DNA from: a virus | Lineage: Duplodnaviria > Heunggongvirae > Uroviricota > Caudoviricetes | Reading direction: 5' to 3' (one strand) | Virus record (IMG/VR): IMGVR_UViG_2563366874_000009 | Length of the DNA stretch: 6,802 nucleotides | In this document: one piece after another, positions 1 to 6,802 of the stretch | How the letters are laid out: the number at the start of each line of letters is the position of its first letter | How positions within the stretch are numbered: the stretch's first letter is position 1 | Notes under the pieces: generated by a model | The model's input: only the letters and a program-made list of their open reading frames with translations | What the model was told of the DNA's origin: nothing | Databases searched by the model: none | Made by a program: the position numbers and the translations under genes

Positions 1-102
1 TATATAATTATAGATTTATATAAAAAGTGCTTTACAGGTGGGAAAAAATTTCCTATGGTTATACCCGAAACCGAGCGATACCCGCCCTGGTTAAACCGGA
101 GA
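1..102. repeat. Terminal direct repeat, copy 1 (identical to 6701..6802); implies circular or tandem unit of 6700 bp
   Basis: Exact identity of bases 1..102 with 6701..6802 by direct reading; contains junction motif A and the 5' end of the first ORF. Confidence 0.9.
31..59 (+). promoter_or_regulatory. Putative sigma70-type promoter for the DUF3560-like gene
   Basis: TTTACA (31..36), 17 nt spacer, TATGGT (54..59); lies just downstream of AT-rich motif A. If used, it would exclude ATG 55 as the start and favour ATG 109. Confidence 0.3.
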
Positions 103-1176: not shown

Positions 1177-1187
1177 CAGTAAGCCTA

Positions 1188-1207
1188 CGGCGGGACGTCT
1201 CCCGCCG
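1188..1207 (+). terminator. Perfect 8 bp inverted repeat hairpin (CGGCGGGA / TCCCGCCG) 12 nt after the ORF stop; possible intrinsic terminator
   Basis: GC-rich stem with 4 nt loop, followed by AT-rich sequence with a T-run only further downstream (TATATAGAATTATATATTT). Confidence 0.35.
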
Positions 1208-1240
1208 TATATAGAATTATATATTTATATAAATGTATAA
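1208..1240. repeat. AT-rich junction motif, copy B (ATAGAATTATATA-TTTATATAAA)
   Basis: Shares a 13-mer ATAGAATTATATA and a 10-mer TTTATATAAA with copy A (which has an extra 8 bp ATTATAGA between them); lies between block 1 and block 2. Confidence 0.7.
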
Positions 1241-1535: not shown

Positions 1536-1897
1536 GCATCAAAACCCATACCGGAATAATCATTACCAATGATGGTGAGAAAAAAGTGAAGTTGCGCGAG
1601 ACGCCGACAACCTGGTGTGTTGGTCCGAAAGAAACATATCGCAAGGAAGATGGCCGTCGTTGTGGGGCACCACTTTCCCGCCGTCGCCTCCTCTTGAGCA
1701 CGATAAAACCTATCGGGCAGGTTGAGCAACCAACGACTCCGGTAACGAAGATTTCAGACAAGAGTCTGGCAAACCTGATCGCTGATGCGGACAAGGTGCT
1801 GGAGCGGAACACCCCCGTTGCAGATGAGGAATGGTGGCAGGATTTCCGAGCCGCAATGCTAGAGCTTCAGGAACGTCGTCGGGAGGAGTTGAAGTGA
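1532..1897 (+). CDS. Hypothetical protein (121 aa)
   Basis: ORF in track; ATGA overlap with upstream stop and GTGA overlap with downstream start indicate translational coupling; no family recognised. Confidence 0.5.
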   Translation: MSIKTHTGIIITNDGEKKVKLRETPTTWCVGPKETYRKEDGRRCGAPLSRRRLLLSTIKPIGQVEQPTTPVTKISDKSLANLIADADKVLERNTPVADEEWWQDFRAAMLELQERRREELK

Positions 1898-2085
1898 ACA
1901 AGAAAAATGCCGGATGGGTCAGGCCAATGAAGGCGAATAAACATCATTATTTTAATGAAGGTGAAGTAACCAGCATTTGCGGCCGTTGGATGTATTTTGG
2001 TGATTACCGTGAGCCAGACACTTTTGAGAGTCCTGATGATTGCGTGTCTTGTCGCCGGAAATTGAACAAGGTGGCTTCTAAATGA
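1894..2085 (+). CDS. Small hypothetical protein (63 aa) with three Cys
   Basis: In frame with track ORF 1831..2085; GTG 1894 overlaps upstream stop (GTGA) and stop overlaps next ATG (ATGA at 2082). Start codon choice uncertain. Confidence 0.35.
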   Translation: MNKKNAGWVRPMKANKHHYFNEGEVTSICGRWMYFGDYREPDTFESPDDCVSCRRKLNKVASK

Positions 2086-3134: not shown

Positions 3135-3563
3135 GTGACCACTTTTACCGACAAAGAAATGATTAAAGAAATCAAAGAGCGCATAGGCAGCTTGGACGTT
3201 AGAGACAATATTGAGCGCCGTGCTTATGAAATTGCACTGGCATCACTGGAAGCAGAGCCGGTTGCAGTAAACGACGATATGGCTTACGCATTCCATCACG
3301 CATTGTCAGATTCATCGCTAGGCGCTGATGAAGTAGAGGAAATTAAGGCCGGTTTGCGTGCTGCCTTTGCCAACGTCACTATCCAACCAGAGCCGGTAGT
3401 GCCGGATGATGGGCGCGAAAAGTTCGAAGCACTTGTCAGGTTTCATGCGGGTGATAAAAACCATGAAACATTATTGCTTCGTGCCAACGAAGGGATGAAT
3501 TACCAGGACCCGAATGTTGATCTGGCGTGGATATTCTGGAAGTCCAGTCGTGAACATATATAA
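3135..3563 (+). CDS. Acidic hypothetical protein (142 aa), last gene of the coupled operon
   Basis: In frame with track ORF 3057..3563; AAGGAG at 3124..3129 is 5 nt upstream of GTG 3135. Alternative start GTG 3057. No Cys, so not a Zn-finger Q-type antiterminator. Confidence 0.5.
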   Translation: MTTFTDKEMIKEIKERIGSLDVRDNIERRAYEIALASLEAEPVAVNDDMAYAFHHALSDSSLGADEVEEIKAGLRAAFANVTIQPEPVVPDDGREKFEALVRFHAGDKNHETLLLRANEGMNYQDPNVDLAWIFWKSSREHI

Positions 3564-3579
3564 GCTGTAGTGAGAAGCC

Positions 3580-3759
3580 ATGCGCTTACGAGCAGTATTC
3601 AGATATTCAGAGCGGGTAATGAAGCACATACAACCGAAAACATGGCAGAAACTGGACTCTATGGGAGTTAAGTTGGAGAAGATTACTCAACTTAAGCAGT
3701 GGCATATCGGCGAATATTATGGAAGTCCTGGTCGGGATGTTCGGTTGGTAAAAAGTTGA
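3580..3759 (+). CDS. Possible small ORF (59 aa) in the leader region, absent from the ORF track
   Basis: Read by hand: ATG 3580 to TGA 3757..3759, with internal ATG 3619; non-repetitive peptide; weak SD; antisense to track ORF 3607..3789. Confidence 0.2.
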   Translation: MRLRAVFRYSERVMKHIQPKTWQKLDSMGVKLEKITQLKQWHIGEYYGSPGRDVRLVKS

Positions 3760-3904
3760 ACATTGCTTTTTTATTGATCGATTAACCACGATATGAAGGT
3801 TTTTTTATGGGGAAACCTTGTTTTAGGTGGTAACTGGGTGTAGTGTTTCATTTAACGTAGTAAAACTGCGTTAAGCGATTACCGCGTAATTTGTTGCTTT
3901 ATGA
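3760..3904 (+). promoter_or_regulatory. Structured leader upstream of the lysis cassette (candidate late promoter / antitermination region)
   Basis: Hairpin AAGGTTT..AAACCTT (3796..3819) and imperfect inverted repeat TTAACGTAG..CTGCGTTAA; several weak -35/-10 candidates (e.g. TTGAAC at 3756) but none convincing. Confidence 0.3.
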
Positions 3905-3936
3905 AGCCCTGCCTTTTTCGGCGGGGCTTTTTTTTT
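3905..3936 (+). terminator. Rho-independent terminator directly upstream of the holin RBS (tR'-like position)
   Basis: 9 bp stem AGCCCTGCC / GGCGGGGCT with one G-U wobble, 6 nt loop, followed by a 9-T run; orientation-specific for the + strand. Confidence 0.6.
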
Positions 3937-3949
3937 AACGAGGATTTCA

Positions 3950-4345
3950 ATGTCAGCAGAACCAATTTCCGGTACGGCCGTTGCTGCTGGTGGCCTGATG
4001 GGGGCCAGCGTTTTTGGTATTGCAACTGGTATTGATTACGGCGTTGTATTCGGGGCATTTGCTGGCGCTGTTTTCTATGTTGCTACAGCGGTGAATATTA
4101 GCCGTCTCAAGCTGATTGGCTATTTCTTTACATCGTTCATTGTTGGAGTGATTGGAGCGCCGTTAGTTGGCTCATTTCTTGCCAAATGGACCAGCTACAA
4201 CGATCGTCCTCTTGATGCACTTGGTGCGGTTATTGTGGCTGCATTGACAATTAAAATCCTCACGTTCGTAAACAGCCAGGATCTCGGTAGCATCTTTGGA
4301 ATGCTTTCCCGCTTACGTGGAGGGGGTTCAAATGGTAAGCAGTGA
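3950..4345 (+). CDS. Putative holin (multi-pass membrane protein)
   Basis: GAGGA SD before ATG 3950; three to four hydrophobic helices rich in Gly/Ala; charged C-terminus; sits immediately upstream of the endolysin. Confidence 0.6.
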   Translation: MSAEPISGTAVAAGGLMGASVFGIATGIDYGVVFGAFAGAVFYVATAVNISRLKLIGYFFTSFIVGVIGAPLVGSFLAKWTSYNDRPLDALGAVIVAALTIKILTFVNSQDLGSIFGMLSRLRGGGSNGKQ

Positions 4346-4628
4346 CCCGTCAGCACTGATTAATGCGGTGCTTTGCACAGTAATAGTAATGGCGCTGATG
4401 CTTTATCGACGGAAAGACTCCAGGCATCGTCCATTTGTTTCCTTTCTGGCTTATATCTACGTCATTGTATACGCCAATGTTCCCTTCCGTTATGTGTTCG
4501 GTCTTTATCAAGAATCCCACTGGCTGGTGGTTATTGGAAATCTGATTACCTGCATCGTTGTTCTGTATTTCAGGGGCAATCTGGCGCGAATAGTTGACGC
4601 ATTAGGGTTTAATCATGACCAAAGATGA
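4332..4628 (+). CDS. Second lysis-cassette membrane protein (holin or antiholin-like, about 3 TM segments)
   Basis: In frame with track ORF 4296..4628; GGAGGGGG SD 5-7 nt upstream of ATG 4332; overlaps holin 3' end and endolysin start. Confidence 0.45.
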   Translation: MVSSDPSALINAVLCTVIVMALMLYRRKDSRHRPFVSFLAYIYVIVYANVPFRYVFGLYQESHWLVVIGNLITCIVVLYFRGNLARIVDALGFNHDQR

Positions 4629-5157
4629 GATTTTTAACAGCGTTCTTGGAAAAGAGGGCGGCTATGTGGATCACCCTGACGACAAGGGAGGCCCAACAAA
4701 GTGGGGCATTACTCAGAACACTGCCCGTGCTCATGGATACCGTGGCGATATGCGCGATTTAACCCGCGAACAGGCACTGGAAATCCTTGAGGCTGATTAC
4801 TGGTACGGACCACGCTTTGATCAGGTGGCCGCATTATCCTCTGATATTGCCGCAGAGCTGTGTGATACCGGTGTGAATATGGGGCCAACAGTGGCGTCCA
4901 AAATGCTTCAACGCTGGCTGAATGTGTTCAATCTGCGTGGGAAGCTGTATCCCGATTTGGATGCAGATGGACGAATCGGTCCACGTACCATTAATGCGCT
5001 GCGTGCTTATCTTGGGAATCGGGGAAAAGACGGCGAACGGGTGATGCTGACGTCGCTGAACTGTACGCAGGGCGAACGCTATCTGGAGCTGGCGGAGAAG
5101 CGCGAGGCGAATGAGTCGTTTGTCTACGGCTGGATGAAAGAGCGAGTGGTGGTATGA
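4615..5157 (+). CDS. Endolysin, glycoside hydrolase family 108 N-domain with peptidoglycan-binding C-domain
   Basis: N-terminal LGKEGGYVDHPDDKGGPTKWGIT is the GH108 signature region as I recall it; stop overlaps i-spanin start (ATGA at 5154). Confidence 0.8.
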   Translation: MTKDEIFNSVLGKEGGYVDHPDDKGGPTKWGITQNTARAHGYRGDMRDLTREQALEILEADYWYGPRFDQVAALSSDIAAELCDTGVNMGPTVASKMLQRWLNVFNLRGKLYPDLDADGRIGPRTINALRAYLGNRGKDGERVMLTSLNCTQGERYLELAEKREANESFVYGWMKERVVV

Positions 5158-5432
5158 CTGGTTTGAAGGCCGTTTTGTCATTTATTGGCACAATTATATT
5201 GGTTGCATTCGGCGCGTTTGGTTTTGGTCGTATGAAGGGGCGAGAAAAGGCCGAAGATGAAGCTGAAAAGCAGCGCATAAATGAGAATGCAGCCGCCGTA
5301 AAAGCCACTGCGGAGCGGCGTATAGAAGTGACAAAAGAGGTGGGCAATGTACAGCAGAGTGTTAACCATATGGCTGATGACGATGTTGATCGCGAGCTGC
5401 GGGAGTCGTGGAAGCGTCCCGGTGGTGGTTGA
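5154..5432 (+). CDS. i-spanin (Rz-like; N-terminal TM helix then charged periplasmic helical region)
   Basis: Hydrophobic segment LKAVLSFIGTIILVAFGAFGF followed by Glu/Lys/Ala-rich sequence; position after endolysin; o-spanin starts inside it in another frame. Confidence 0.6.
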   Translation: MTGLKAVLSFIGTIILVAFGAFGFGRMKGREKAEDEAEKQRINENAAAVKATAERRIEVTKEVGNVQQSVNHMADDDVDRELRESWKRPGGG

Positions 5433-5556
5433 TACTGCCTGTGATTGGGTAAAGCCCATCTACCTGACTGATCACGATATCGATGTTATGGACCGCCAGA
5501 CAAAGAAAGATATTCTGGCTCATAACAGGGCATGGGAAATCAACTGCCCCAAGTAA
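5347..5556 (+). CDS. o-spanin (Rz1-like outer-membrane lipoprotein), overlapped architecture
   Basis: AGAGGTGGG SD before ATG 5347; signal peptide MYSRVLTIWLMTMLIASC with lipobox IAS-C; starts within the i-spanin gene and extends past it. Confidence 0.6.
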   Translation: MYSRVLTIWLMTMLIASCGSRGSVPVVVDTACDWVKPIYLTDHDIDVMDRQTKKDILAHNRAWEINCPK

Positions 5557-5590
5557 TATATATTTCTATAATTATATAAATATATAGTTA
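5557..5590. repeat. AT-rich junction motif, copy C (inverted relative to copy B)
   Basis: TTATATAAATATATA matches the reverse complement of the copy B core (about 17/21); begins directly after the o-spanin stop. Confidence 0.6.
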
Positions 5591-5646
5591 CAACATTCTA
5601 TGCGCTTTTCTCATGGGCGCACGCATCAACCATGTTTGTCTGATAT

Positions 5647-5700
5647 GCCGCCGCGCCCAAAAATCCTGAATTTATTGGCTGGGATTTTCGTGCGCGGCGC
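5647..5700. other. Long interrupted inverted repeat 26 bp upstream of the tRNA
   Basis: Outer 8 bp GC stem (5649..5656 with 5692..5699) plus inner 7 bp stem AAAATCC/GGATTTT (5660..5666 with 5682..5688) around a 15 nt loop; no T-run follows. Confidence 0.4.
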
Positions 5701-5725
5701 CACACCAGACAAACAGATCAAATAT

Positions 5726-5801
5726 GGCCCCTTAGCTCAGTGGTTAGAGCAGGCGACTCATAATCGCACGGTCATCGGTTCAAATCCGGTAGGGGCCACC
5801 A
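5726..5801 (+). tRNA. tRNA with CAU anticodon; closest by memory to enterobacterial tRNA-Ile2 (lysidine-modified, reads AUA), phage-borne variant
   Basis: Cloverleaf read by hand: 7 bp acceptor stem GGCCCCT/AGGGGCC, D-arm GCTC-AGTGGTTA-GAGC, anticodon loop CTCATAA (CAT at 5759..5761), T-loop TTCAAAT, 3' ACCA. The 5' half matches my recollection of E. coli ileX; T-arm differs. Confidence 0.85.
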
Positions 5802-6010
5802 ATTCACTCTCACACATAAAGATAAGCGCGGTGGAGTTACTTCCTTCGTGCTCATCTTTATGCGTGCCTGGTGCGCATTTCGGGCGAACGTGGGGCTAAG
5901 TTACAGGCAGGGCCTGTTATCCGCAAAGGGGTAAAAGCTGGAGCGGCACGGAACTGTAGCCGTGTTACCAAAACAGCGTTGTCGGGCGATATCCGGCACA
6001 CAACAGGCAA

Positions 6011-6041
6011 GGGCATTAATCAGTCTGGTTAGTGCCCTTTT
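6011..6041 (+). terminator. Hairpin terminator downstream of the tRNA region
   Basis: 9 bp stem GGGCATTAA / TTAGTGCCC (one G-U), 9 nt loop, then TTTT; T-run is short so strength is moderate. Confidence 0.4.
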
Positions 6042-6109
6042 CGTTGCGTCTGCTGTAGAGCTGGCCAGCGTTATGACTGCCGGAGATAAGCGCCGGAGGC
6101 ACAACTAAC

Positions 6110-6697
6110 ATGGAGGCAATTGCATTGTTTAATCTGATTTATGCAGATCCCCCCTGGGAATACAAAGATAAGTGTAAGGATGGGAATCGTGGAGCTGGTT
6201 TTAAGTATCCAACGATGAAAGCTGAGGATATTGCTCGTATTCCTGTCTGGCAGCTTGCTAATCCTGAATCGTGTTTGTTGGCCATGTGGTGGGTTCCGAC
6301 TCAGCCAGAAGAAGCGTTGCTGGTGGTGAAAGCATGGGGATTCAGGCTTATGACCATGAAGGGCTTCACATGGAACAAATGTGGTAGCCGACAACCAGAT
6401 AAGCTGGTGATGGGGATGGGGCATATGACTCGTGCAAACAGTGAAGATTGCTTGTTTGCGGTAAAAGGCAAATTGCCGACCCGCCTTGATGCGGGGATCA
6501 TTCAGTCGTTTACATCGCCTCGTCTGGAGCATTCTCGGAAGCCTGATGTGGTTCGTGACAAGCTGGTAAGGCTGTTAGGTGATGTTCCTCGTATTGAGCT
6601 GTTTGCTCGCGGTGATTTACCTGATGGTTGGCATGGCTGGGGCAACCAGTGCAATGGAGGTATCCAGTTGCATGATGCTCTCTGGCAAGTGGCATAG
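6110..6697 (+). CDS. DNA N6-adenine methyltransferase, MT-A70-like family (orphan, no cognate nuclease seen)
   Basis: Catalytic DPPW motif (LIYADPPWEY) near the N-terminus followed by MT-A70-like conserved blocks; GGAGG SD about 9-10 nt upstream; stop TAG 6695..6697 abuts motif A. Confidence 0.75.
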   Translation: MEAIALFNLIYADPPWEYKDKCKDGNRGAGFKYPTMKAEDIARIPVWQLANPESCLLAMWWVPTQPEEALLVVKAWGFRLMTMKGFTWNKCGSRQPDKLVMGMGHMTRANSEDCLFAVKGKLPTRLDAGIIQSFTSPRLEHSRKPDVVRDKLVRLLGDVPRIELFARGDLPDGWHGWGNQCNGGIQLHDALWQVA

Positions 6698-6730
6698 AAT
6701 TATATAATTATAGATTTATATAAAAAGTGC
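6694..6730. repeat. AT-rich junction motif, copy A (ATAGAATTATATA-ATTATAGA-TTTATATAAA); also present at 1..30 through the terminal repeat
   Basis: Begins within the methyltransferase stop codon; shares 13-mer and 10-mer with copy B. Confidence 0.7.
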
Positions 6731-6802
6731 TTTACAGGTGGGAAAAAATTTCCTATGGTTATACCCGAAACCGAGCGATACCCGCCCTGGTTAAACCGGA
6801 GA
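6701..6802. repeat. Terminal direct repeat, copy 2 (identical to 1..102)
   Basis: Exact identity with 1..102 by direct reading. Confidence 0.9.

What the first reader, a model, noticed from the sequence alone, without database searches (positions are those of the whole stretch)
3564..3949. Lysis cassette has a lambdoid-style leader and terminator but no recognisable Q antiterminator
The strong terminator at 3905..3936 just before the holin RBS, preceded by about 340 bp of structured non-coding sequence, mimics the lambda pR'-6S-tR' arrangement, in which late genes are read only when an antiterminator modifies RNA polymerase. Yet the upstream gene (3135..3563) has no cysteine and does not resemble Q. 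Either antitermination is supplied in trans by a helper prophage (which would fit a satellite-like lifestyle), or a non-Q factor from the upstream operon does it, or the leader encodes a small RNA or small protein (ORF 3580..3759).
Basis: partly seen in the sequence, partly recalled or inferred. Interest (0 to 1): 0.45.

Follow-up and report, generated by a model that had tools for sequence, protein, structure and literature searches.

The report
Terminator-gated lysis genes; hidden Q-like antiterminator
The strong stop signal in front of the lysis genes is real and conserved, but the "missing" antiterminator is only missing from the window: the parent 48-kb phage-plasmid encodes a very divergent, unannotated relative of phage 21 Q about 60 bases upstream of the window.

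Summary
A strong intrinsic terminator (3903-3936, 11-bp stem, T9, -20.5 kcal/mol) ends 13 nt before the holin ATG, so lysis-gene transcription must cross it. The "340 nt non-coding" claim is half wrong: 3580-3759 is a real, purifying-selected 59-aa gene. The true leader is 190 nt (3760-3949) and contains a near-invariant block (3834-3875) and a possible 8-codon uORF.

The window is a repeat-bounded fragment (identical 102-nt promoter cassettes at both ends) of a ~48-kb E. coli phage-plasmid with a full set of head, tail and replication genes, not a satellite. About 60 nt upstream of window position 1, that replicon encodes a 125-aa protein with no Pfam hit. A profile of its remote homologues matches phage 21 Q (E 3.4e-5), its model resembles Q21/AlpA, and relatives hit "Q-like" families.

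Every lineage carrying this gene keeps a terminator before its holin, even where the leader or the lysis cassette is replaced.

Best reading: Q21-type antitermination gates the early/late boundary. This link, and where the factor loads, are inferred, not shown. It is a new variant of a known kind, of moderate interest.

The parts
1..102 (+). Promoter cassette, identical copy at 6701-6802. It holds the 3' part of an AT-rich array of 8-bp units (1-27), -35 TTTACA (31-36), a spacer with the inverted repeat GGGAAAAAATTTCC, -10 TATGGT (54-59), a shared ~40-nt 5'UTR with the -10-like GATACC (77-82), and RBS GGAGA (98-102). In the parent replicon it follows the Q-like gene directly. It is the candidate Q-loading promoter (inferred).
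   Evidence: the only sigma70-like sites in the window; three copies per genome, each before a different gene.
3135..3563 (+). Ea22-like accessory gene (142 aa), not an antiterminator.
   Evidence: No Pfam hit and PHROGs of unknown function only. The N-terminus is shared with ea-region genes of Stx phages. RefSeq names a homologue 'ead/Ea22-like'. It is replaced or absent in some relatives.
3580..3759 (+). orf59, a real 59-aa gene of unknown function, restricted to this phage-plasmid group.
   Evidence: phrog_9594 at E 8.6e-46; purifying selection; found only in the three Yersinia phage records; absent in L031/L040 and some E. coli plasmids that keep the leader.
3760..3949 (+). True non-coding leader of the lysis cassette, single copy in the genome. 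It travels with whichever lysis cassette follows it.
   Evidence: fold z = -4.3.
3796..3819 (+). Hairpin H1 (AAGGUUUUUU...GGGGAAACCUU). It contains the SD-like GAAGG.
   Evidence: RNAalifold: one-sided G-U/A-U changes and two compensatory pairs in the Salmonella-type sequences, together with two mismatches.
3807..3833 (+). Possible 8-codon upstream ORF MGKPCFRW*. Its SD GAAGG lies at 3795-3799.
   Evidence: A start codon (ATG or GTG) lies 7-8 nt from the SD in 15 of 16 distinct variants, and PCF(R/M/G)W-stop is kept. Suggestive only.
3834..3875 (+). Near-invariant block: a GU-rich single-stranded stretch plus hairpin H2 (3854-3872).
   Evidence: 88-93% identity to the Salmonella-type relatives, where orf59 is 56-58% identical at the nucleotide level and its synonymous sites are saturated. 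H2 is invariant. Sub-threshold Rfam GcvB hit of 34.3 bits against a gathering score of 42.
3903..3936 (+). Strong intrinsic terminator at the early/late boundary; the tR'-like gate.
   Evidence: Compensatory stem changes across lineages. An analogous terminator precedes the holin in every related lineage.
3940..5556 (+). Lysis cassette: RBS, holin 3950-4345, 3TM holin 4332-4628, GH108 endolysin 4615-5157, i-spanin 5154-5432, o-spanin 5347-5556.
   Evidence: Pfam Phage_holin_8, Phage_holin_3_7, Glyco_hydro_108 + PG_binding_3, and a weak LysC hit.
6701..6802 (+). Second copy of the promoter cassette. In the parent replicon it precedes two small genes, then two strong terminators and the packaging/head genes.

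Best explanation
Region 3564-3949 is the early/late boundary of a ~48-kb plasmid-prophage.

It consists of a small accessory gene (orf59) and a 190-nt structured leader. The leader ends in a strong intrinsic terminator that abuts the holin ribosome-binding site.

Transcription arriving from the upstream early/middle operon stops at this terminator, which keeps the lysis genes silent. That operon is driven by the repressor-controlled early promoter and by the repeated 102-nt promoter cassette.

A 125-aa early-operon protein, encoded about 60 nt upstream of the window, is a divergent member of the phage 21 Q / PF06530 antiterminator lineage.

Once this protein accumulates, it loads onto RNA polymerase at a promoter. 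The most likely site is the cassette that directly follows its gene and recurs before the morphogenesis genes. Loaded polymerase becomes resistant to this terminator and to the further terminators downstream, which switches on lysis and late genes.

Shown: the terminator, its conservation, the coding status of orf59, the identity of the parent replicon, and the homology of the 125-aa protein to Q21.

Inferred: that this protein acts on this terminator, and where it loads.
For: (1) The terminator is unique and strong, and no promoter fits between it and the holin.

(2) The arrangement is conserved where the sequence is not. In the Pantoea (L004/L020), L016-L018, L017 and L019 lineages an intrinsic terminator precedes holins of 30-38% identity. 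The Salmonella-type L013/L014 have a non-homologous holin/SAR-lysozyme cassette behind the same leader, with a different terminator hairpin. The stem shows compensatory changes.

(3) The parent replicon has at least three strong sense-strand terminators in the unit that runs from the early operon through the packaging, head and tail genes, plus a weaker one at 6009-6039. Those before the holin and at L003 21107-21084 sit just upstream of the next RBS.

(4) Several independent tests link the 125-aa protein to Q:
- A profile of 114 remote homologues hits the Q21 chains 6jnx_P/6p18_P at E 3.4e-5, aligning the LELWGAWV motif.
- 10 of the 114 hit Pfam PF06530 Phage_antitermQ.
- 20 hit phrog_79 and 5 hit phrog_943, both 'anti-termination protein Q-like'.
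- For the AF2 model (pLDDT 77), the top Foldseek PDB hits are Q21 structures (TM ~0.5, prob 0.9).

(5) Gene position fits Q. It is an early right-operon gene divergent from a CI-like repressor. It is followed within ~100 nt by a sigma70-like promoter. This matches the 'Q gene followed by PR'' rule quoted.

(6) The cassette's identity extends 40 nt into the transcribed region in all three copies, before three different genes. This is what a promoter-proximal loading/pause region would give.
Against: - No experiment links the protein to this terminator.
- The homology to Q21 is remote. The protein itself hits no Pfam Q family, and its close-family profile finds nothing in the PDB.
- The C-terminal half alone is a generic sigma-R4-like HTH that many regulators share.
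- The cassette promoter lies 3.85 kb upstream of the terminator, not tens to hundreds of nt as in known Q cassettes.
- The cassette spacer holds an inverted repeat, not the direct-repeat QBE of phage 21.
- The -10-like pause candidate is weak (GATACC).
- In Vibrio and Pseudomonas phages the homologue is not adjacent to lysis genes.
- The near-invariant leader block and the possible uORF are not explained by this model.
Confidence: 0.55

Rival explanations
1. Same antiterminator, different loading site. The near-invariant leader core is itself a weak late promoter: -35 TTGTTT (3818-3823), a 17-nt invariant spacer acting as the binding element, -10 TAGTGT (3841-3846), and a -10-like TAGTAA (3859-3864). 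It makes an ~80-nt terminated RNA, a true pR'-6S-tR' analogue, and the Q-like protein loads here.
For: Both hexamers and the whole spacer lie in the most conserved stretch of the region, at 88-93% where neighbours are 43-58%. Sequence constraint on a spacer is what a QBE lying between -35 and -10 would give. The distance to the terminator would be canonical. All late genes lie downstream and co-directional.
Against: The hexamers match the consensus at only 6 of 12 positions, and the consensus scan finds no promoter in 3564-3949 on either strand. The spacer has no 8-bp-spaced direct repeat. The Q-like gene would lie 4 kb from its promoter, against the adjacency rule. Lineages with 53-64% identical Q-like proteins have no comparable element before their holin terminators.
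Confidence: 0.15
2. Leader-autonomous control. The conserved leader RNA decides read-through by itself, without a protein antiterminator. It would act either as a ribosome-coupled attenuator, or as a put-like cis-acting RNA that modifies polymerase. The components are the SD-sequestering hairpin H1, the 8-codon uORF MGKPCFRW with a rare AGG/AGA codon next to the stop, the invariant block and H2.
For: The invariant block and H2 lie 30-70 nt upstream of the terminator. SD-start spacing of 7-8 nt, with ATG/GTG retained, holds in 15 of 16 variants. G-U pairs make the helices strand-specific. The leader stays attached to two unrelated lysis cassettes.
Against: No alternative pairing between the invariant part and the lineage-specific terminator arms was found. 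The uORF evidence is thin: most of it lies in invariant sequence, and one variant has a stop at codon 2. There is no Rfam family match above threshold. More distant lineages gate the holin with a terminator but have no such leader. The three other sense terminators have no leader of this kind.
Confidence: 0.15
3. The terminator simply ends the early/middle operon and is leaky. The conserved 3' UTR is processed into, or transcribed as, an Hfq-type small RNA with a GU-rich seed that acts on host mRNAs. Lysis genes are expressed by basal read-through that scales with copy number after induction.
For: The architecture is sRNA-like: a 5' hairpin, an exposed GU-rich stretch, a second hairpin, a U-rich linker, and a terminator with a long U tail. 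Rfam gives sub-threshold hits to GcvB (34.3 bits, E 8e-5), Spot 42 and others. The 'seed' is near-invariant.
Against: A hairpin of -20.5 kcal/mol with U9 is not expected to be very leaky. The GcvB score is below the gathering threshold. No target was found on the plasmid better than shuffled seeds give. This reading does not explain the series of terminators before other late genes, or the presence of a Q homologue.
Confidence: 0.12
4. Antitermination is supplied in trans by a helper prophage because the element is a satellite.
For: Within the 6.8-kb window there are no structural genes and no Q, and the ends are identical, which suggests a small circle.
Against: The window is a segment of 47-50-kb plasmids found in 70 complete E. 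coli genomes and of an isolated Yersinia myovirus. Both carry full morphogenesis, repressor and replication modules and a Q-like gene. The terminal identity is a three-copy internal repeat. Similar ~6.5-kb repeat-bounded contigs exist in IMG/VR.
Confidence: 0.02

Closest known systems
Phage 21 Q (Q21/Q933W family, Pfam PF06530) late-gene antitermination cassette
   Same: An early-operon gene encodes a small sigma-R4-like protein homologous to Q21, by profile, fold and family links. A promoter follows the gene directly. A strong intrinsic terminator sits immediately before the holin. All late genes lie co-directionally downstream.
   Different: The protein is too divergent for Pfam or PGAP to name: it is 125 aa against 162, and falls in phrog_5285 'unknown'. 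About 3.85 kb with nine genes separates the adjacent promoter from the terminator. That promoter cassette is triplicated in the genome. No TGAGCA-type direct-repeat QBE is present. The host element is a plasmid-prophage with a P2-like tail, not a lambdoid phage.
Lambda pR'-6S RNA-tR' leader
   Same: A structured leader of about 190 nt ends in a strong terminator just upstream of the holin gene.
   Different: No consensus promoter was found inside the leader. There is no sequence similarity. The Q protein is of the unrelated Q21 type. The leader carries a possible uORF and an invariant block that lambda lacks.
Pseudomonas aeruginosa AlpA (Q21-like antiterminator controlling the alpBCDE lysis genes)
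   Different: AlpA is chromosomal and its binding element lies in the promoter immediately upstream of the lysis operon. Here the nearest recognisable promoter is kilobases away. No sequence-level match to AlpA was tested.
HK022 put RNA (cis-acting RNA antitermination)
   Same: A conserved two-hairpin RNA segment lies upstream of terminators that must be read through.
   Different: No homology is known or detectable, and a protein antiterminator candidate exists. The put RNAs occur near early promoters, not before the lysis genes.

Membership tests
Q-dependent antitermination cassette, Q21/PF06530 type | A protein homologous to Q21 | tested here: met
   - Profile of 114 homologues against the PDB: Q21 at E 3.4e-5.
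- 10 of 114 hit PF06530.
- 25 of 114 hit Q-like PHROGs.
- The protein on its own hits no Q family, so the homology is remote.
- The gene lies outside the window.
Q-dependent antitermination cassette, Q21/PF06530 type | The Q gene is immediately followed by its target promoter PR' | tested here: inconclusive
   A sigma70-like site, TTTACA-17-TATGGT (9/12), begins ~95 nt after the stop codon. Whether it is the target is unknown. In L013/L014 and L019 another ORF intervenes.
Q-dependent antitermination cassette, Q21/PF06530 type | A Q-binding element between -35 and -10, made of direct repeats 8 bp apart as in phage 21 | tested here: not met
   The cassette spacer GGTGGGAAAAAATTTCC is an inverted repeat, conserved across lineages as AGGA-n7-TCCT. 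No TGAGCA-like direct repeat is present (compare). The 8-bp direct repeats that do exist (the AT arrays) lie upstream of -35 and also at the parA promoter.
Q-dependent antitermination cassette, Q21/PF06530 type | A -10-like sigma-dependent pause element in the initial transcribed region | tested here: inconclusive
   GATACC, GATACT or GATAGT lies at about +12 to +17 of the cassette transcript. The match is weak and the transcription start was not mapped.
Q-dependent antitermination cassette, Q21/PF06530 type | An intrinsic terminator between the promoter and the late (lysis) genes | tested here: met
   The terminator at 3903-3936 ends 13 nt before the holin ATG and is conserved in all related lineages. 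However, it lies 3.85 kb from the cassette promoter.
Q-dependent antitermination cassette, Q21/PF06530 type | Q-dependent read-through of the terminator | not testable with these tools
   This needs reporter, in vitro transcription or RNA-seq data.
Lambda-type pR'/6S leader RNA | A constitutive promoter inside the leader giving a short terminated RNA | tested here: not met
   No sigma70-like site of at least 9/12 occurs in 3564-3949 on either strand. The best manual candidate is 6/12.
GcvB sRNA (RF00022) | A score at or above the Rfam gathering threshold | tested here: not met
   34.3 bits against a gathering score of 42.
Phage satellite dependent on a helper | Lacks its own morphogenesis and late-control genes and exists as a separate small element | tested here: not met
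   The window is part of 47-50-kb replicons with a complete virion module.

The most novel reading that the evidence does not exclude
The 190-nt leader may be more than a passive spacer. Its SD-sequestering hairpin, the 8-codon uORF (MGKPCFRW, with a rare Arg codon next to the stop) and the near-invariant GU-rich block plus hairpin could form a translation- or factor-sensing attenuator, or a dual-function sRNA. Such an element would set lysis timing on top of a Q21-like antiterminator that loads at three identical promoter cassettes dispersed in a plasmid-prophage. That two-layer late switch has not been described for Q systems.
Probability: 0.15. Interest if true: 0.65.

Novelty: new variant of a known kind. 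Interest (0 to 1): 0.42.

Why it matters
Q-type antitermination is treated as a hallmark of lambdoid phages, with Q next to pR'-tR'. This case suggests three points.

- A large, unannotated branch of the Q21 lineage exists (phrog_5285; 130 representative clusters at 50% identity) in plasmid-prophages of Escherichia, Salmonella, Klebsiella, Yersinia and Pantoea, and in Vibrio and Pseudomonas phages.
- In these elements the antiterminator gene and the gated lysis cassette can be kilobases apart.
- The terminator-plus-leader acts as a portable junction behind which whole lysis cassettes are exchanged.

These ~48-kb plasmids are common in clinical and reference E. coli, including ATCC 25922. Knowing their lysis switch is therefore useful for induction studies and for annotation.

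Tried and rejected
- **Gene 3135-3563 as an antiterminator.** Pfam and PHROG scans found no support; it is Ea22-like.
- **orf59 as an N-like factor.** It has an Arg-rich N-terminus and sits beside conserved hairpins. It was rejected as essential because it is absent from plasmids that keep the leader and lysis genes.
- **Direct Pfam and PDB-profile searches with the 125-aa protein and its close family.** These gave nothing. The Q21 link appeared only after broadening the profile.
- **The AT-rich arrays of 8-bp units as the Q-binding element.** This was attractive because the Q21 QBE is an 8-bp-spaced direct repeat and one array follows the Q-like gene in every lineage. It was downgraded because arrays also flank and overlap the parA promoter and lie between parA and its small partner gene. 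That fits an operator or centromere of the partition protein better. The 82-aa partner gave no Pfam hit, so this too is unproven.
- **An sRNA target on the plasmid.** The best duplex was -21.3 kcal/mol against a shuffled-seed mean of -23.2.
- **Rfam.** Only the tRNA passes threshold.
- **Other copies of the leader.** A search of the genome found none. In IMG/VR the core occurs only in this group.
- **My recollection that this is the 'pSLy3' phage-plasmid group.** This was wrong: pSLy3 belongs to the SSU5 supergroup. I leave the group unnamed.
- **Phage homologues of the Q-like protein.** Those in Vibrio and Pseudomonas phages gave no informative adjacency to lysis genes.

Full report
**What the window is.** The first and last 102 nt of the window are identical. 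The whole window is 97% identical to a contiguous stretch of Yersinia phage vB_YpM_39, a 49-kb genome. The finding region is 100% identical to plasmid pP136-7 of E. coli P13-6, 48,077 bp. Seventy of 5,426 complete E. coli genomes carry the region, and 71 of 72 places are on 46-52-kb plasmids. PLSDB adds E. fergusonii, E. albertii, Salmonella and Klebsiella plasmids.

The RefSeq annotation of pP136-7 shows a complete plasmid-prophage. It has RepA, ParA, a toxin-antitoxin pair and a CI-like repressor (HTH_3 + Peptidase_S24). It also has terminase, portal, protease, capsid and a P2-like contractile tail.

The 102-nt repeat occurs three times in the genome, each time in front of a different gene. 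The window is therefore a repeat-bounded piece of this replicon, not a small circle or satellite. IMG/VR holds several similar ~6.5-kb fragments.

**Checking the observation.** The terminator is real. Its stem is GAAGCCCTGCC / GGCGGGGCTTT with loop TTTTTC, and the T-run reaches 3936. The hairpin energy is -20.5 kcal/mol. It is the only site of its strength on either strand, and none of 300 Markov-1 simulated windows had one. The RBS GAGGA (3940-3944) and the holin ATG (3950) follow at once, so every transcript of the lysis cassette must cross the terminator. The cassette is a Phage_holin_8 holin, a 3TM holin, a GH108 endolysin and two spanins.

The "340 bp of non-coding sequence" is not correct.
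- ORF 3580-3759 matches phrog_9594 end to end at E 8.6e-46.
- Against homologues with 61-63% protein identity in Salmonella-type relatives, it shows saturated synonymous change (pS 0.75-0.88) and low non-synonymous change (pN 0.23-0.28).
- Differences by codon position are 13/8/28.

It is a gene. The real leader is 3760-3949. It folds better than shuffles (z = -4.3) into hairpin H1 (3796-3819), an exposed GU-rich stretch, hairpin H2 (3854-3872), a U-rich linker and the terminator.

The upstream gene 3135-3563 is indeed not Q. It has no Pfam hit and matches only PHROGs of unknown function. It is homologous to ea/Ea22-type accessory genes.

**The missing Q.** In the parent replicon, the gene immediately upstream of the window encodes 125 aa (L003 28367-28744, minus strand). 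Its stop codon lies about 60 nt before window position 1. The gene sits in the early operon that diverges from the CI-like repressor. It has no Pfam hit and belongs to phrog_5285, "unknown function". A profile of its close family finds nothing in the PDB.

A full HMMER scan found 130 representative clusters. A profile of 114 of them gave the following links to Q:
- It hits the phage 21 Q chains 6jnx_P/6p18_P at E 3.4e-5, aligning profile positions 4-90 with Q21 residues 11-94, including the LELWGAWV motif.
- Ten members hit Pfam PF06530 Phage_antitermQ.
- Twenty hit phrog_79 and five hit phrog_943, both annotated "anti-termination protein Q-like".

**Conservation of the arrangement.** I fetched loci encoding relatives of this protein.
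- In lineages whose Q-like proteins are 53-64% identical and whose holins are 30-38% identical, an intrinsic terminator again lies just before the holin RBS. These are Pantoea L004/L020, L016/L018 and L017. In L019 it lies 430 nt upstream. Energies range from -12.7 to -15.8 kcal/mol.
- In Salmonella-type relatives (L013, L014, L037, L038) the lysis cassette is non-homologous: a 97-aa holin and a SAR-type lysozyme. It nevertheless sits behind the same orf59 and leader, with a different terminator hairpin at the same position (-16.5 and -17.6 kcal/mol).
- The terminator stem shows compensatory changes, CG to UA and swapped C-G/U-G pairs.
- In pP136-7 the same co-directional unit holds further sense-strand terminators. 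Two strong ones lie at L003 21107-21084 and 19894-19869, before the packaging genes, and the first sits just upstream of the next RBS. A weaker one lies at window 6009-6039.

A string of terminators inside a long late unit, together with a Q homologue in the early operon, is the signature of antitermination control.

**Where would the factor load?** Known Q proteins need three things: a promoter next to the Q gene, a binding element between -35 and -10, and a -10-like pause element in the initial transcribed region.

The 102-nt cassette that follows the Q-like gene contains:
- the only sigma70-like sites in the window, TTTACA-17-TATGGT;
- a spacer with an inverted repeat conserved across lineages as AGGA-n7-TCCT;
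- a 40-nt transcribed part that is identical in all three copies and holds a weak -10-like GATAC(C/T)/GATAGT at about +12 to +17.

The second cassette copy is followed by two small genes and then by the two strong terminators before the packaging genes. This makes the cassette the best candidate. However, the spacer is not a Q21-type direct repeat, and the promoter is 3.85 kb from the holin terminator.

An alternative site is the leader core: TTGTTT-17-TAGTGT, with an invariant spacer and a downstream TAGTAA. It matches the consensus at only 6 of 12 positions and was not found by the scan. I cannot decide between these two sites.

**The leader itself.** Identity between the window and the Salmonella-type relatives varies sharply by segment:

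| Segment | Identity |
|---|---|
| orf59 (3580-3759) | 56-58% |
| 3760-3792 | 70-76% |
| 3793-3833 | 76-83% |
| 3834-3875 | 88-93% |
| linker (3876-3902) | 43-50% |
| terminator (3903-3936) | 71-74% |

With synonymous sites saturated, the block 3834-3875 is under strong nucleotide-level constraint.

Upstream of the block, an invariant GAAGG (3795-3799) is followed after 7-8 U by ATG or GTG in 15 of 16 distinct variants. This opens an 8-codon frame, M-x-K-P-C-F-R-W-stop (3807-3833). The SD lies inside hairpin H1. This could be a leader peptide, but the evidence is only suggestive, because most of the frame lies in invariant sequence.

- Rfam gives only a sub-threshold GcvB match, 34.3 bits against a gathering score of 42.
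- No better-than-random target for the GU-rich stretch exists on the plasmid.
- The leader is single-copy in the genome and, within IMG/VR, confined to this group.
- orf59 is missing in some plasmids that keep the leader and lysis genes, so it is not required.

**AT-rich arrays.** Each lineage has its own array of three to five 8-bp units. The E. coli type is TAKAWWTA, ending in TATAAAAN. The array occurs seven or more times per genome, always in intergenic DNA. One copy follows the Q-like gene, and in distant lineages another lies directly before the holin terminator. Because copies also flank and overlap the parA promoter and lie between parA and its 82-aa partner, I think they are more likely operators or centromere sites of the partition protein than Q-binding elements. 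This is unresolved.

**Verdict.** The lambda-like logic is supported. The "no Q" premise and the satellite idea are not.

The most likely mechanism, at confidence about 0.55, is antitermination by a divergent Q21-family protein encoded just outside the window. The terminator at 3903-3936 would act as the early/late gate. The alternatives that remain open:
- The same factor loads at a promoter inside the leader core rather than at the cassette (0.15).
- The conserved leader acts on its own as an attenuator (0.15).
- The leader is an sRNA behind a leaky terminator (0.12).

The case is a new variant of a known kind, of moderate interest.

Noticed in passing
window 1-102 and 6701-6802; L001 10443-10544, 20007-20108, 27055-27156: A 102-nt unit is present three times per phage-plasmid genome, in front of three unrelated genes. 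It comprises an AT array, a sigma70-like promoter with an inverted repeat in the spacer, a 40-nt 5'UTR and an RBS. The copies evolve in concert: the Salmonella-type genomes have their own version in all copies. The unit explains why the window looks circular.
   Followed up: partly
window 1-27, 1208-1240, 5555-5590, 6694-6727; L003 32039-32071, 32113-32141, 32816-32851: AT-rich arrays of three to five tandem 8-bp units (TAKAWWTA ... TATAAAAN) occur at least seven times per genome, all in intergenic DNA. The unit number varies between genomes (five units in pP136-7 copy C against four in the window). Each related lineage has a different unit sequence. Copies flank and overlap the parA promoter. 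They are candidate operators or dispersed centromeres of the ParA partner; a Q-binding role is not excluded.
   Followed up: partly
window 3795-3833: A possible leader peptide. The SD GAAGG is followed after 7-8 U by ATG/GTG and the frame MGKPCFRW-stop, with a rare AGG/AGA Arg codon two codons before the stop. The SD is buried in hairpin H1. One Salmonella-type variant reads ATG-TAA followed by a new in-frame ATG.
   Followed up: partly
window 3834-3875: This block is 88-93% identical between lineages whose neighbouring gene has saturated synonymous sites. It contains the GU-rich stretch GGGUGUAGUGUUUCAUUU, which produced the sub-threshold Rfam GcvB match, and the invariant hairpin AACGUAGU-AAA-ACUGCGUU.
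   Followed up: partly
L013 15163-16542; L014 11660-12300: Salmonella-type relatives keep orf59 and the leader but carry an unrelated lysis cassette (a 97-aa holin, a SAR-type lysozyme, different spanins). The leader/terminator therefore marks a module junction at which whole lysis cassettes are exchanged.
   Followed up: partly
window 5590-6105: A long non-coding stretch follows the lysis genes. It holds an inverted AT array, a 34-nt-arm hairpin (5633-5715), a tRNA with anticodon CAT (5726-5801; ARAGORN calls it Met, RefSeq calls it Ile), a second hairpin (5811-5866) and a weak terminator (6009-6039). In L016/L018 the same GTTACAACATTCTAT motif opens a ~400-nt structured non-coding region placed before the holin instead.
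   Followed up: no
window 1185-1240: A GC-rich hairpin, ACGGCGGGACGTCTCCCGCCGT, has no T-run and is followed directly by an AT array, between the DUF3560 gene and the winged-helix gene. The same hairpin-plus-array pairing occurs upstream of parA (L003 32020-32071).
   Followed up: no
L003 21107-21084 and 19894-19869 (minus strand): Two more strong sense-strand intrinsic terminators lie downstream of the third promoter cassette and before the ParB/Srx-methyltransferase-terminase block. The first sits just upstream of the next gene's RBS.
   Followed up: partly
window 1894-2085, 3135-3563, 3580-3759: The accessory genes between the cassette and the lysis leader are mosaic among otherwise near-identical plasmids. 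Gene 1894-2085 is absent in pP136-7. Gene 3135-3563 is replaced or absent in several IMG/VR contigs. orf59 is absent in a few.
   Followed up: partly
L003 30738-30771: A perfect 13-14-bp inverted repeat, CACGATATGTGGT-n6-ACCACATATCGTG, lies between the CI-like repressor gene and the early operon. It is a likely operator and is unrelated to the cassette spacer repeat.
   Followed up: no
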